Below are positions 26,801 through 35,800 of a DNA stretch of 64,000 nucleotides, piece by piece. Positions within the stretch are counted from its first letter, which is position 1. Each line of letters begins with the position of its first letter. A program made the position numbers. The stretch is from NCBI RefSeq assembly GCF_054482525.1, contig NZ_CM137006.1. One strand, written 5' to 3'.

Positions 26801-29800
26801 GACACAGCTGCTGATGCTGACAGATAAGCAAATCGCCGATTTCCAGAAACATTATCAGACTGAAGCGGAGCGTTTTCATATTCTGCCACCGGGGATTTAT
26901 CCTGATCGTAAATATAGCCAGCAGCCAGCCAATAGCCGTGAAATCTTCCGTAAGAAGAATGGAATAACCGAACAACAATATTTATTGTTGCAGGTCGGTT
27001 CAGACTTCACGCGTAAAGGTGTCGATCGTTCCATTGAAGCACTTGCTTCATTACCGGATTCGCTGCGCCACAACACATTGCTATATGTTGTTGGGCAGGA
27101 TAAACCGCGAAAATTTGAGGCGCTGGCAGAAAAACGCGGCGTGCGCAGTAATGTTCACTTCTTCTCGGGGCGCAACGATGTCTCGGAATTAATGGCGGCG
27201 GCGGATTTATTACTGCATCCCGCCTACCAGGAAGCGGCGGGAATTGTGCTGCTGGAAGCGATTACTGCAGGATTACCGGTACTAACAACAGCCGTTTGTG
27301 GCTATGCGCATTATATTGTCGAGGCCAATTGCGGCGAGGCTATTGTTGAGCCATTCCGCCAGGAAACATTGAATGAGATTTTACGCAAAGCGTTAACGCA
27401 ATCTTCATTGCGCCAGGCCTGGGCGGAAAATGCGCGACATTATGCTGATACACAAGATTTATACAGTCTGCCAGAGAAAGCGGCGGACATCATAACGGGT
27501 GGTCTGGATGGTTGAACTTAAAGAGCCGTTTGCCACGTTATGGCGCGGTAAAGATCCTTTTGAGGAAGTTAAAACTTTGCAGGGTGAGGTATTTCGTGAA
27601 CTGGAAACTCGCCGTACTCTGCGCTTTGAAATGGCGGGCAAAAGCTATTTTCTCAAATGGCATCGCGGCACGACCCTGAAAGAGATAATCAAAAATTTAC
27701 TCTCATTGCGGATGCCAGTATTAGGCGCAGACCGCGAATGGAATGCGATTCATCGACTGCGGGATGTCGGCGTTGATACTATGTATGGGGTGGCATTCGG
27801 CGAAAAAGGCATTAATCCGCTCACCAGAACCTCGTTTATTATAACCGAAGATCTGACACCAACCATCAGTCTGGAAGATTACTGTGCTGACTGGGCGACT
27901 AACCCACCAGATGTTCGCGTAAAGCGTATGCTTATTAAGCGTGTCGCGACGATGGTGCGCGATATGCATGCTGCGGGCATTAACCACCGTGACTGTTATA
28001 TCTGTCATTTCCTGCTGCACTTGCCTTTTTCCGGTAAGGAAGAGGAGTTAAAAATTTCAGTAATTGACCTGCACCGGGCGCAGCTTCGCACGCGCGTTCC
28101 ACGTCGTTGGCGCGATAAAGATCTTATTGGACTTTATTTTTCTTCGATGAATATTGGCCTGACTCAGCGGGATATCTGGCGGTTTATGAAAGTGTATTTT
28201 GTCGCCCCGCTTAAAGACATTATCAAGCAGGAACAAGGGCTGCTGTCGCAAGCAGAAGCAAAAGCCACAAAAATCAGGGAAAGAACGATTAGAAAATCGT
28301 TGTAATTTCCGGAGAGAAATATGAGTGCCCACTATTTTAATCCACAAGAGATGATCAATAAGACAATCATCTTCGATGAAAGGCCAGCGGCGTCAGTGGC
28401 ATCATCATTCCATGTTTCTTATGGCATTGATAAAAACTTTCTTTTTGGTTGTGGTGTTTCAATCACGTCAGTTTTGTTACATAACAACGACGTGAGTTTT
28501 GTTTTCCACGTTTTTATTGATGCTATCCCTGAAGCCGATATCCAGCGTTTAGCCCAATTGGCGAAAAGCTATCGTACCTGTATCCAGATCCATCTAGTAA
28601 ATTGTGAACGGCTTAAGGCATTACCGACGACCAAAAATTGGTCTATTGCCATGTATTTCCGTTTTGTAATTGCAGATTACTTTATTGATCAACAAGATAA
28701 GATCCTTTACCTGGATGCTGATATCGCCTGTCAGGGAAACTTAAAGCCGCTGATAACAATGGATCTTGCCAATAACGTTGCTGCTGTTGTTACTGAACGC
28801 GATGCTAACTGGTGGTCGTTACGGGGTCAAAGTCTGCAGTGTAATGAACTTGAAAAGGGTTACTTTAATTCAGGTGTCCTGTTAATTAATACACTAGCGT
28901 GGGCGCAGGAGTCCGTTTCTGCTAAAGCGATGTCGATGCTTGCTGATAAAGCCATCGTTTCCCGTTTAACCTATATGGATCAAGATATCCTTAATCTTAT
29001 CCTGTTAGGGAAAGTTAAATTCATTGATGCTAAATACAATACGCAATTTAGTTTAAATTATGAATTAAAAAAATCATTTGTTTGTCCAATTAATGATGAA
29101 ACCGTATTAATTCATTATGTCGGCCCGACAAAACCCTGGCATTACTGGGCCGGTTATCCAAGTGCGCAACCTTTTATCAAAGCCAAAGAAGCATCGCCCT
29201 GGAAAAATGAACCGTTAATGCGGCCAGTTAACTCAAACTATGCTCGTTATTGCGCCAAGCATAATTTTAAACAAAATAAACCAATTAACGGGATAATGAA
29301 TTATATTTATTATTTTTATTTAAAGATAATAAAATGAAATTGAGAAAAGTTAAATGAATGAATTTATAAAAGAACGGTTTTCGTATTTAGCAGATAATAA
29401 AAAAGAAAACGCCCCAGAGCTAAATGTTTCCTACGGTATCGATAAGAATTTTTTGTATGGTGCTGGCGTTTCAATTTCTTCCGTTTTGATTAATAATTCA
29501 GATATTAATTTTGTCTTTCATGTTTTCACTGATTATGTGGATGATGATTATTTAAAGTCATTTAATGAAACAGCAAAACAATTTAATACCTCAATTATTG
29601 TATATTTAATTGACCCCAAATACTTTGCTGATCTGCCGACGTCACAGTTTTGGTCGTACGCGACATACTTCAGGGTATTGTCTTTTGAATATCTGAGTGA
29701 AAGTATTTCCACACTGCTGTATCTGGATGCCGATGTTGTTTGTAAAGGAAGCCTGAAACCTCTCACAGAAATTATATTTAAAGATGAGTTTGCTGCGGTC

Positions 29801-32800: not shown

Positions 32801-35800
32801 TAAGCATAACTATAGAGAAAATTCCTTAATGAACTCATGTAGAACCATCACTCATTATCGACATGAGTCATTTGCGCACGAAAGAATCTACTCTTCTGTG
32901 ATGCAGTTATACAAAGGTAACCGGAAAGAAGAAATTCATACATTATTGAGTAAGAATAGAACTTATCATAAAACTCGTTATTTATGGAATGTTCTACTTA
33001 ATGGCGATTTTGAATTATTAAATCAATTAGTTGAAAGCAATGAAAAAGAATTGAAAGATTGTAATCTTCTTGGCAAGAGAGATAAGAGGCGAGCAAAAAT
33101 ATTAGCATCAAAAAACTATATTCTCTGGAGGATGGTAAGACTGGTAAATAGAAAAAAGAATAAACGTTAGGTCTTGCATTAAATAACCCATCCTCGTAGC
33201 ATAGGTTGAAATTATATGTCGTTTTGTTGGAATGAAATTAACTCTGGTGTCAAGTCTTTAATTCTCATATTATGTATATTGTCTTTAATGACTTTGTCTT
33301 TGTGGGATGATGTTGCAACAAAGTTTCTTCATGCAGCTGGAATTATATCTGCATTATATTTTCTAGCGACACCAAAAAAAACAATAACTAATAATCCTAC
33401 TTTGTTAATTTTTATCTCATTATGTCTTTTGGGTATCGTTAATATCATCTGGTATTCACATTATAAAGTTTCAGGCTCGGTTTATACCAATGCATATCGT
33501 GGCCCAATGGAAACTGGAAAAATTGCCTTGTGTAGTGCTTTTATTTTCTTAGTTCTTTTTGCTAAAGATGAGATGAGAACCAAAATAAAATTTGGGAAAC
33601 TAATTCTGTTCGCATCCTTGGCAACGCAGTTACTTTTTTTTGCGCATGCCATGTGGCAACATTTCTATTTAAACGTCGACCGTGTTGCATTATCAGCTTC
33701 CCACGCTACAACAGCAGGCTACATCATCCTTTTCCCTTCTTTACTGGCATCAATTCTCATTTTAAAATCCGACTTTAGACATAAAACAACATTATATACA
33801 ATTAACTTCATACTTAGCTTATGTGCTGTTATAGTAACTGAAACGCGTGCAGCCATATTAGTGTTTCCATTCTTTGCGTTACTATTAATCGTAATGGATA
33901 GTTATATTAATAAGCGAATTAATTATAAGTTATATTGTTTTATTGCGATTGCATTATTAGCAGGTGTATTTTCTTTTAAAGATACATTACTTACGAGAAT
34001 GAATGACTTAAATAGGGATTTAGTTAATTATTCGCATGATAACACCAGAACTTCAGTCGGTGCCCGTCTGGCAATGTATGAAGTTGGTTTAAAAACATAT
34101 TCTCCAATAGGACAATCACTGGAAAAACGTGCGGAAAAAATACATGAACTAGAAGAAAAAGAGCCTAGATTGAGTGGCGCTTTACCCTATGTAGATTCTC
34201 ATTTGCATAACGATCTCATAGATACGTTATCAACGCGTGGTATTCCTGGAGTTGTATTAACAATTTTAGCCTTTTCAGCAATACTCATATATGCCTTAAG
34301 AACTGCTAAAGAACCTTATATTTTAATCTTGCTTTTTTCACTACTGGTAGTAGGCCTAAGTGATGTAATACTCTTTTCTAAACCGGTTCCGACTGCTGTG
34401 TTTGTCACCATAATATTGCTTTGTGCTTATTTTAAAGCACAATCGGACCAATGTTTATTAGATAAGTAATGAATATGTGAAATAAAATCAGCAAGGAAGC
34501 TGATTTTATTTCAAAATTATCTATTAAAGAGTTGTAATTTAAATCATGGCAGCTTTTTCAGCGTTTTCTTCAATGAATTGCTTAACAGCATTTGCTGTCA
34601 ATTGAGACAACTCATTCCCCGGAGCCCTACAAACCATCTGATTCTTCCCATATCCGCCAATTAATCCCGGATCGGTTGGTCCATAAACCGTGATATTCGG
34701 TCTATCCAGTGCCGCCGTTAAATGGCTTAACCCCGTATCCACCGACACTACAAATTTAGCCCCGGCCAGTACGCGGGCAACGCCTTCCAGACTCATCTTC
34801 GGCAATACTTCAACATAAGCAAATCCTTCCGCCAGTCGTTTCGCCCGTTCTTCCTCATGCGGCGCGCCCCACGGAAGTTTAATCCGTATTCCTGAATCAG
34901 CCAGTAAACCAATCAATTCTCGCCAGTGTTCTTCCGGCCAGTGTTTATCATCACGGGTCGTCGCATGAAGAAATACGGCATATTCGCCAGCATCTGTAGG
35001 CAGGTTCGTCAGGAAATGTTGTGCGATAGCATAATCACCCTGGGTTTGCGGTTTGCTATAGCCCAAACTTTTGGCAAACAGTTCGCGGGTGCGTTCTACG
35101 GCGTGCTGCTGTTTTGCAATATGATGCTTACGATTGTAAAACAGGCTGGCTAACGGTTCTCGAACGGTTTGCCAGTCCATGCCATGCTTTACGCCATGCG
35201 CCAGACGCGTCACCAGCGCCGCGCTTTTTACCAGCCCCTGAGCGTCGATAACTGCGTCATAGTTCTCTGCTTGTAGCGCTTCACGAAACGCTTTGCGTTC
35301 AGCTTTTATGGGGGCCGAGAACCAGGCTTTACGCCAGCGACGTATTGCCACAGGAATAACTCGCTCAACGGCGGCGTGCCAGGAAGGAATCTGTGCGAAC
35401 CCTTCTTCCACCACCCAGTCAAACTTAATCCCTGGGATTGCCTGCTGGGCATCAGTGAGTGCGGGCAGCGTATGGAGAACATCGCCCATCGACGATGTTT
35501 TAACGATCAAAACCCGCATCCGTCAGGCTTCCTCTTGTAACAATAGCGCGTTGAGTTCTTCCAGTACGCGCTGGGGAGTAATGTCGATCAAGCTCTGGTG
35601 ATAACCCTCCGCAGCGTCACCTTTACGCACTTTGTGATAGCCGGTAATCAGGCGGATCACGCGCGCTTTATGGGATAGCGGCGGTGTGAAGTCCGGGCTA
35701 CTCGGACCATACAGGGCAACCAGCGGACGATTGAGCGCCGCCGCAACGTGCATCAGGCCAGAATCGTTAGTGACAATGGCTTTACAGGCTGCAATCAGGA

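What the first reader, a model, noticed from the sequence alone, without database searches (positions are those of the whole stretch)
28321..34469. Outer-core LPS gene block of R1 type, AT-rich relative to backbone
After waaQ-waaG-waaP the window carries three GT8 genes, a kinase, a GT2 gene and waaL, with no counterparts of K-12 waaS, waaB, waaZ or waaU. This content fits the R1 core type common in extraintestinal E. coli. The block is visibly more AT-rich than the flanking genes, consistent with horizontal exchange of the outer-core cassette. waaL is on the same strand as the central operon and convergent with waaC.
Basis: partly seen in the sequence, partly recalled or inferred. Interest (0 to 1): 0.4.

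Follow-up and report, generated by a model that had tools for sequence, protein, structure and literature searches.

The report
Ordinary E. coli R1 LPS core genes
This stretch is the well-known R1-type gene set that builds the outer part of the E. coli lipopolysaccharide core and attaches O-antigen to it; it is intact, typical, present in about a third of sequenced E. coli, and therefore ordinary.

Summary
The observation and the interpretation both hold. Window 28321-34469 carries six intact + strand genes: GT8 (waaO), GT8 (waaT), heptose-II kinase (waaY), GT8 (waaW), GT2 (waaV) and an O-antigen ligase (waaL). They follow waaQ-waaG-waaP and converge on waaC. GC is 35.2%, against 52.0% for the rest of the window.

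In silico PCR with the published core-typing primers gives the R1 product of exactly 842 bp. No R2, R3, R4 or K-12 primer matches. K-12 WaaS, WaaB, WaaZ and WaaU and the R4 WaaX (GT25) have no counterpart anywhere in the window.

The waaV-waaL pair is present as a single chromosomal copy in 1834 of 5426 complete E. coli genomes. The window differs from strain SCU-102 at 4 of 64000 bases.

Three refinements:
- The type-specific sequence is wider than the reported coordinates. Against K-12 it runs from about 25060 to 34620, ending inside the 3' end of waaC.
- R1 and R4 differ only over 32035-34619.
- Diverged R1-like loci from other, unidentified bacteria show the same GC step. AT-richness is therefore an old property of the cassette, not evidence of recent import.

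Verdict: already known, low interest.

The parts
25248..25286 (+). JUMPstart element containing the ops sequence GGCGGTAG (25275-25282), in the leader of the waaQ operon. It is the RfaH loading site.
   Evidence: Rfam RF01707 at 55.2 bits (gathering score 35), E 6.4e-10. Exact ops match.
25336..26394 (+). waaQ (heptosyltransferase III), first gene of the central operon. It is already core-type specific relative to K-12 (73% aa identity).
   Evidence: ORF. PGAP rfaQ in the near-identical record. 99% identical to R3 and R4 WaaQ and 73% to K-12 WaaQ.
26391..27515 (+). waaG (GT4). It adds GlcI to HepII.
   Evidence: 100% identical to R3 WaaG and 90% to K-12 WaaG.
27508..28305 (+). waaP (heptose-I kinase). 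This is the PGAP start; the longest ORF begins at a GTG at 27499.
   Evidence: 100% identical to R4 WaaP and 84% to K-12 WaaP.
28321..29337 (+). waaO (GT8). By the literature it is the alpha-1,3-glucosyltransferase that adds GlcII to GlcI.
   Evidence: Pfam GT8 plus GT8C. NF011718 at 610 bits. 100% identical to the WaaO of the R4 strain, 50% to K-12 WaaO and 54% to R3 WaaI. DAD motif at residue 132. Function from 10.1101/2022.09.06.506728.
29354..30349 (+). waaT (GT8). It is the alpha-1,2-galactosyltransferase that adds GalI to GlcII.
   Evidence: Pfam GT8. 99.7% identical to the R4-strain homologue and 43% to K-12 WaaJ. This exact sequence was seen on at least 1000 contigs, with UniRef representative Q9ZIS6. 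Function.
30359..31051 (+). waaY (heptose-II kinase).
   Evidence: PF06176 at 2.6e-129. NF007684 at 400 bits against a cut-off of 248. 53% identical to K-12 WaaY.
31077..32105 (+). waaW (GT8). It is the alpha-1,2-galactosyltransferase that adds GalII to GalI. Its last 71 nt (from 32035) are R1-specific.
   Evidence: Pfam GT8. PGAP product name. The shared R1/R4 primer matches exactly at 31946-31965. 93.9% identical to the R4 homologue, with a divergent C-terminus.
32187..33170 (+). waaV (GT2). It is the R1-defining beta-1,3-glucosyltransferase. It adds the beta-Glc side branch on GlcII from which O-antigen extends.
   Evidence: PF00535 at 3.8e-39. A source names it UDP-glucose:(glucosyl)LPS beta-1,3-glucosyltransferase. 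The R1-F primer matches exactly at 32769-32787. No hit to any K-12, R3 or R4 locus protein. DDD motif at residue 93. Function from PMC3526765.
33216..34469 (+). waaL, the R1-type O-antigen ligase and last gene of the waaQ operon.
   Evidence: PF04932 Wzy_C at 1.5e-18. 35% identical to R4 WaaL, 30% to K-12 WaaL, and no hit to R3 WaaL. About 11 hydrophobic segments, and the motif H-N-x9-G-x2-G at residue 331.
34478..34513 (.). Perfect 15-bp-stem palindrome in the 69-bp gap between the convergent waaL and waaC. It is a candidate bidirectional terminator.
   Evidence: Terminator scan. RNA fold of -20.5 kcal/mol, z = -4.9, with 0 of 200 shuffles folding as well. The function is inferred.
34539..35519 (-). 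waaC (heptosyltransferase I). Its 3' end (about 34539-34620) is core-type specific, giving a 326-aa protein with an R1-specific C-terminal tail.
   Evidence: Nucleotide homology to K-12, R4 and R3 resumes at 34621, 34620 and 34591 respectively. C-terminal sequences compared.
35523..37511 (-). waaF (35523-36569) and hldD/rfaD (36579-37511), the conserved inner-core operon.
   Evidence: 99.7-100% identical to the K-12 and R4 proteins.
23646..24923 (-). waaA (Kdo transferase), divergent from waaQ. It marks the left conserved border.
   Evidence: 99.8% identical to K-12 WaaA. Nucleotide identity to K-12 falls from 0.98 to 0.62 at about 25060.

Best explanation
This is the canonical, intact R1-type outer-core section of the E. 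coli waa (rfa) locus, and the last six genes of the nine-gene waaQ operon (waaQGPOTYWVL).

Transcription starts upstream of waaQ. It is made processive by RfaH, which is recruited at the JUMPstart/ops element (25248-25286). That lets RNA polymerase read through about 9 kb of AT-rich DNA to the hairpin after waaL.

On the cytoplasmic face of the inner membrane the steps are:
- WaaG adds GlcI to HepII.
- WaaO adds GlcII (alpha-1,3).
- WaaT adds GalI (alpha-1,2) to GlcII.
- WaaW adds GalII (alpha-1,2) to GalI.
- WaaV then adds a beta-1,3-linked Glc to GlcII.
- WaaY phosphorylates HepII.

After MsbA flips lipid A-core, the R1-specific WaaL ligates undecaprenyl-PP-linked O-antigen to the WaaV-added beta-Glc.

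Shown here: gene content, order, strands, family assignments, R1 typing, intactness, and the breakpoints against K-12, R3 and R4. Taken from the literature, or inferred: the enzymatic steps, RfaH dependence, and the terminator function of the hairpin.
For: - Gene content and order.
- Family assignments.
- R1 in silico PCR gives 842 bp with exact primers, and no primer of any other type matches (primers and expected size from PMC13293308). As a control, the R4 locus L003 gives the published 380-bp R4 product.
- The GT2 is named beta-1,3-glucosyltransferase by a source.
- K-12 WaaS, WaaB, WaaZ and WaaU and the R4 GT25 have no tblastn hit in the window. R3 WaaD has no BLASTP hit to any of the six proteins of the block.
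- The block covers at least 80% of its length in 1825 of 5426 complete E. coli genomes. The waaV-waaL pair is in 1834 of 5426, always as a single chromosomal copy. PMC13293308 reports 35.5% R1.
- The exact protein sequences are common alleles, seen on 348 to at least 1000 contigs, some of them Shigella sonnei.
- DXD and ligase motifs are intact.
- JUMPstart scores 55.2 bits.
- Gene functions: 10.1101/2022.09.06.506728 and PMC3526765.
Against: Nothing in the sequence argues against it. The limits are these:
- No chemical or serological data on the core.
- The F470 prototype sequence (AF019746) could not be fetched for a direct comparison.
- The R2-specific genes (waaK) were excluded only by primer search and by gene content, not by protein comparison.
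- The PGAP product name for WaaO (3-alpha-galactosyltransferase) conflicts with the literature function (glucosyltransferase). I attribute this to the naming of NCBIfam model NF011718.
Confidence: 0.95

Rival explanations
1. The locus is R4 type, or an R1/R4 hybrid like ECOR46, rather than R1.
For: Genes waaQ through most of waaW are 99.2% identical in nucleotides to an R4 strain. R1 and R4 therefore cannot be told apart from the first four genes of the block. R1/R4 hybrids exist (ECOR46, PMC13293308).
Against: - The R4-F (waaX) primer is absent, even with 3 mismatches allowed.
- The R4 GT25 protein has no tblastn hit anywhere in the 64-kb window.
- The ligase is only 35% identical to the R4 ligase.
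- There is a single waaV and a single waaL, and no IS element in the locus.
Confidence: 0.01
2. The AT-rich block is a recent foreign import into this lineage, and the low GC is an un-ameliorated signature of the donor.
For: - GC is 35% against 52%.
- Homology breaks sharply against R3 (28370/34591), R4 (32034/34620) and K-12 (about 25060/34621), while the flanks stay 98-99% identical.
- R1 occurs in several phylogroups: B1 42.5%, B2 53.4%, C 99.4% (PMC13293308).
- Distant WaaV relatives occur in low-GC Providencia.
Against: - Two much more diverged R1-architecture loci show the same compositional step at the same gene boundaries: 32-39% GC in the outer-core genes against 48-55% in waaC, waaF and hldD where those genes are complete (L008). 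They are L005 (WaaG 94%, WaaV 73% identical) and L008 (HldD 96%, WaaV 48%).
- Within E. coli the block differs between strains by 1-2%, which is within the range I expect for the E. coli core genome (from memory, not measured here).

The cassette and its low GC are therefore old. Exchange between lineages by homologous recombination in the conserved flanks is plausible. A recent import from a distant donor is not indicated.
Confidence: 0.1
3. The locus is R1 by gene content but non-functional, giving a rough or truncated core through a subtle defect.
For: Sequence alone cannot prove activity. Rough and semi-rough E. coli strains with apparently intact loci exist (my own knowledge).
Against: - All nine operon ORFs are full length.
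- The exact protein sequences are common alleles, seen on hundreds to thousands of contigs.
- The DXD motifs, the WaaL H-N-x9-G-x2-G motif and the ops element are present.
Confidence: 0.04

Closest known systems
E. coli R1 core-type waa locus (prototype F470; also E. coli C/NCTC122 and Shigella sonnei)
   Same: - Gene order waaQGPOTYWVL, convergent with hldD-waaF-waaC.
- waaV (GT2) plus an R1-type waaL.
- The published R1 typing amplicon of 842 bp.
- Low GC.
- JUMPstart/ops in the leader.
   Different: Nothing detected. The window differs from strain SCU-102 at 4 of 64000 bases, and the block is 98-100% identical to that of about 1800 complete genomes.
E. coli R4 core-type waa locus
   Same: Identical architecture. 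99.2% nucleotide identity from mutM through most of waaW (22000-32034), and 98.9% again from 34620 to 39998 (waaC 3' region through tdh).
   Different: A 2.6-kb replacement over window 32035-34619. R4 has waaX (GT25, beta-galactosyltransferase) and a ligase 35% identical. R1 has waaV (GT2) and its own ligase. The C-terminal tails of WaaW and WaaC also differ.
E. coli R3 core-type locus (O157:H7)
   Same: waaQ, waaG and waaP are 97-100% identical at protein level. Nucleotide identity is 98.6% up to window 28370.
   Different: The R3 outer core is waaI-waaY-waaJ-waaD, and waaL is on the opposite strand, in the hldD operon. The GT8 proteins are 37-54% identical. There is no counterpart of WaaV.
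E. coli K-12 core-type locus
   Same: The same chromosomal site between waaA and hldD-waaF-waaC. It has homologues of waaQ, G, P, O and Y, and a JUMPstart leader.
   Different: K-12 has waaS, waaB, waaJ, waaZ and waaU, with waaL in the hldD operon. Even waaQGP are only 73-90% identical at protein level. WaaO is 50%, WaaY 53% and WaaL 30% identical.

Membership tests
E. coli R1 core-type waa locus | Gene order waaQ-G-P-O-T-Y-W-V-L on one strand, with waaL in the waaQ operon and convergent with waaC. | tested here: met
   ORF map and PGAP annotation of the near-identical record.
E. coli R1 core-type waa locus | waaV (GT2 beta-1,3-glucosyltransferase) between waaW and waaL, rather than waaX (GT25). 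| tested here: met
   PF00535 at 3.8e-39. Source name of beta-1,3-glucosyltransferase. The R4 locus has a GT25 at this position, and that protein has no tblastn hit in the window.
E. coli R1 core-type waa locus | Positive with the published R1 typing PCR and negative for the R2, R3, R4 and K-12 PCRs. | tested here: met
   Both R1 primers match exactly and give 842 bp, the published size. The other seven primers do not match with up to 3 mismatches (PMC13293308 Table 2).
E. coli R1 core-type waa locus | An R1-specific waaL allele. | tested here: met
   35% identical to R4 WaaL, 30% to K-12 WaaL and no hit to R3 WaaL. It co-occurs with waaV as a single copy in 1834 genomes. It was not compared directly with the F470 sequence.
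E. coli R1 core-type waa locus | Absence of the genes specific to other types (K-12 waaS/B/Z/U, R3 waaD/J/I, R2 waaK, R4 waaX). | tested here: met
   No tblastn hit for K-12 WaaS, WaaB, WaaZ, WaaU or R4 WaaX. R3 WaaD has no hit to any protein of the block, and R3 WaaI and WaaJ are at most 54% identical to the GT8 proteins. R2 waaK was excluded only by the absence of its primers and by there being no spare ORF.
E. coli R1 core-type waa locus | R1 core oligosaccharide chemistry: GlcI-GlcII-GalI-GalII with a beta-Glc branch that carries O-antigen. | not testable with these tools
   Needs MS or NMR of the core, or an R1-specific antibody.
RfaH-dependent (JUMPstart/ops) operon | A JUMPstart element with an ops sequence in the transcribed leader. 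| tested here: met
   RF01707 at 55.2 bits against a gathering score of 35, at 25248-25286, 50 nt upstream of waaQ. GGCGGTAG at 25275. RfaH dependence itself was not tested.
Glycosyltransferase family 8 (WaaO/WaaT/WaaW) | A GT8 domain plus the GT8 C-terminal domain, with a DXD motif. | tested here: met
   PF01501 at E 1e-71 to 1e-80 and PF08437 in all three proteins. DAD at residues 132, 125 and 127.
O-antigen ligase (WaaL, Wzy_C) | A polytopic membrane protein with a Wzy_C domain and a conserved His-containing periplasmic-loop motif. | tested here: met
   PF04932 at 67.5 bits against a cut-off of 31.7. About 11 hydrophobic segments and H-N-x9-G-x2-G at residue 331. The motif definition is recalled from memory (Schild et al. 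2005).

The most novel reading that the evidence does not exclude
The low GC of the outer-core cassette may be a long-maintained, possibly selected property rather than a fading mark of foreign origin. R1-architecture loci from two more distant, unidentified enterobacterial lineages (WaaV 73% and 48% identical) show the same step from about 33-35% to about 51-54% GC at the same gene boundaries. This could reflect a requirement for H-NS/Rho silencing that is relieved by RfaH at the ops site. A smaller point is that the recombination junctions lie inside waaW and waaC. Each core type therefore carries its own WaaC and WaaW C-terminal tail, which might be co-adapted with the neighbouring ligase and transferase.
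Probability: 0.3. Interest if true: 0.3.

Novelty: already known. Interest (0 to 1): 0.07.

Why it matters
Core type sets the acceptor structure for O-antigen ligation. It also influences the receptor specificity of some phages and the reach of anti-core antibodies and vaccines. Knowing that this strain is R1 is therefore useful for annotation. It opens no new question. The locus was characterised genetically and chemically in the late 1990s, it is present in about a third of E. coli genomes, and a published tool types it automatically.

Tried and rejected
- **R4 or hybrid type.** Rejected: no waaX, no R4 primer site, a single waaL.
Rejected: only 36-54% identity for the best K-12 or R3 match of each GT8 protein.
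- **Reading Amor et al. 2000 (PMC97256)** for the original typing primers and its statements on GC. The paper is not held, so the 2025 LPSTyper primers were used instead.
- **Direct comparison with the F470 prototype (AF019746).** Not possible, because that record is in none of the searchable collections. Typing rests on the primers, the gene content and the source names.
- **Scanning genome contigs to name the organisms behind the diverged R1-like loci L005 and L008.** Considered and not run. The cost is not justified for an ordinary finding, and the conserved WaaV peptides are generic GT2 motifs.
- **Promoter-like sites inside the block.** Their number is no higher than in shuffled sequence (36 found against 31.9 +/- 6.1), so no internal promoter is claimed.
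- **Rfam scan.** It found nothing in the window other than JUMPstart.

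
Full report
**What is there**

The window is E. coli chromosome. It differs at 4 of 64000 positions from strain SCU-102 (NZ_CP051753.1, 4494317-4558316, reverse complement).

Between waaA (23646-24923, -) and the hldD-waaF-waaC operon (37511-34539, -) lie nine + strand genes with short or overlapping junctions:

| Gene | Coordinates |
|---|---|
| waaQ | 25336-26394 |
| waaG | 26391-27515 |
| waaP | 27508-28305 |
| waaO | 28321-29337 |
| waaT | 29354-30349 |
| waaY | 30359-31051 |
| waaW | 31077-32105 |
| waaV | 32187-33170 |
| waaL | 33216-34469 |

The last six are the ORFs of the finding. 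Pfam and NCBIfam assign them as GT8, GT8, WaaY kinase, GT8, GT2 and Wzy_C O-antigen ligase, all far above the curated cut-offs.

**Composition**

The block is 35.2% GC and the rest of the window 52.0%. It is the lowest 6149-bp stretch in the window. Per-gene GC is 32-38% (GC3 26-37%). waaQGP are intermediate at 47-49%, and the flanking genes are at 51-54%. The AT-richness is real and large.

**Typing**

I used the primers of the 2025 LPSTyper paper (PMC13293308, Table 2). R1-F (waaV) matches exactly at 32769-32787 on the minus strand. The shared R1/R4 primer (waaW) matches exactly at 31946-31965. The product is 842 bp, the published size. None of the R2, R3, R4 or K-12 primers matches, even with three mismatches allowed. 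As a control, an R4 strain locus (L003) gives the published 380-bp R4 product and has no R1-F site.

At protein level:
- The GT2 has no BLASTP hit among the proteins of the K-12 (MG1655), R3 (O157:H7) or R4 loci.
- One source names the exact sequence UDP-glucose:(glucosyl)LPS beta-1,3-glucosyltransferase, which is WaaV.
- The R4 locus carries a GT25 gene at that position, and its product has no tblastn hit anywhere in the window.
- K-12 WaaS, WaaB, WaaZ and WaaU also have no hit in the window.
- Each GT8 protein is 36-54% identical to its best match among K-12 WaaO/WaaJ and R3 WaaI/WaaJ, but 94-100% identical to its counterpart in the R1/R4 family.
- The ligase is 35% identical to R4 WaaL and 30% to K-12 WaaL, with no detectable match to R3 WaaL.

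**How common it is**

The block covers at least 80% of its length in 1825 of 5426 complete E. coli genomes. A relative of the waaV-waaL pair detects the pair in 1834 of 5426, always as one chromosomal copy. That is 33.8%, close to the 35.5% R1 reported for 4549 genomes (PMC13293308).

The same paper reports R1 enriched in UPEC, NMEC, APEC and ETEC. It is spread over several phylogroups: B1 42.5%, B2 53.4%, C 99.4%. The exact protein sequences of this window are common alleles, seen on hundreds to more than a thousand contigs, including Shigella sonnei.

**Boundaries**

The homology breakpoints are slightly different and depend on the comparison:

| Compared with | Identity lost at | Identity resumes at |
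|---|---|---|
| R3 | 28370, 50 nt into waaO (98.6% up to there) | 34591 |
| R4 | 32034, 71 nt before the waaW stop (99.2% up to there) | 34620 |
| K-12 | about 25060, in the waaA-waaQ spacer | 34621 |

Against K-12, waaQGP are only 61-83% identical in nucleotides.

In every comparison the right-hand junction lies about 50-80 nt inside the 3' end of waaC. R1 WaaC therefore has its own C-terminal tail and is 326 aa long, against 319 aa in K-12 and R4 and 330 aa in R3. WaaW likewise has R1- and R4-specific C-termini.

**Regulatory features**

A JUMPstart element with the ops sequence lies at 25248-25286, 50 nt before waaQ (Rfam 55.2 bits). A perfect 15-bp-stem palindrome (34478-34513; -20.5 kcal/mol, z = -4.9) sits in the 69-bp gap between the convergent waaL and waaC. 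Promoter-like sites inside the block are no more frequent than in shuffled sequence.

**Mechanism**

The enzymatic steps below come from the literature and were not tested here.
- WaaG and WaaO add GlcI and GlcII.
- WaaT and WaaW add GalI and GalII.
- WaaV then adds the beta-Glc branch to GlcII, and it needs WaaW to have acted first.
- WaaP and WaaY phosphorylate HepI and HepII, and WaaQ adds HepIII (10.1101/2022.09.06.506728).
- In R1 the O-antigen extends from the WaaV-added beta-Glc, and WaaV and WaaX are the determinants of R1 and R4 (PMC3526765).
- WaaL performs the ligation at the periplasmic face.

All six proteins are full length and keep their expected motifs: DXD in the four transferases, and H-N-x9-G-x2-G with about 11 hydrophobic segments in WaaL.

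**Horizontal exchange**

AT-richness by itself is weak evidence for that. WaaV relatives at 73% and 48% identity sit in loci with the same nine-gene architecture: L005 (WaaG 94% identical to the window's) and L008 (HldD 96%, WaaF 90%). Both show the same step, from 32-39% GC in the outer-core genes to 48-55% in waaC, waaF and hldD where those genes are complete (L008). The L005 variant occurs in none of the 5426 complete E. coli genomes, so it comes from outside sampled E. coli. The low GC is therefore an old, persistent property of this cassette family, not a sign of recent import into this strain.

**Verdict**

Observation confirmed and interpretation supported. This is a textbook R1 core locus: intact, typical and very common. 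It is already known and of low interest. Its value is limited to correct annotation of the strain's core type.

Noticed in passing
window 34539-34620 (3' end of waaC) and 32035-32105 (3' end of waaW): The recombination junctions between core types lie inside genes. R1 WaaC has a type-specific C-terminal tail and is 326 aa long, against 319 aa in K-12 and R4 and 330 aa in R3. WaaW has R1- and R4-specific C-termini.
   Followed up: partly
window 28321-29337 (waaO): PGAP, through NCBIfam NF011718 (610 bits), names R1 WaaO 'lipopolysaccharide 3-alpha-galactosyltransferase'. The literature describes WaaO as the glucosyltransferase that adds GlcII. This is probably a product-name error carried over from the WaaI-based model.
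   Followed up: partly
window 37512-37724: htrL/yibB lies next to hldD in K-12 and in O157:H7 but is absent here and in the R4 strain examined. hldD is followed directly by a 213-bp spacer and then kbl-tdh.
   Followed up: no
window 40195-41229 (+): waaH (UDP-glucuronate:LPS(HepIII) glycosyltransferase) is another LPS-core-modifying gene, outside the waa cluster. It sits in a second GC dip of 41-44%.
   Followed up: no
window 53025-59004 (-): A 5253-bp YadA-like trimeric autotransporter gene (53025-58277) is preceded by a DUF3251 gene (58321-59004). A low-GC patch lies at about 58501-59500, with 38-42% GC in 1-kb windows.
   Followed up: no
window 15424-15701 (-): Two short pseudogene remnants lie between yicC and yicG: a BRO family N-terminal fragment and a DnaD C-terminal fragment. 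They look like prophage-derived debris.
   Followed up: no
L005 1-9238 and L008 1-14470: Metagenome and SRA contigs from unidentified bacteria carry the same waaQGP-GT8-GT8-waaY-GT8-GT2-waaL architecture, convergent with waaC, but with diverged genes (WaaV 73% and 48%, WaaL 80% and 51% identical). They show the same low-GC step. The L005 variant is in none of the 5426 complete E. coli genomes. WaaV relatives also form a graded series from 73% down to about 37% identity, including Providencia.
   Followed up: partly
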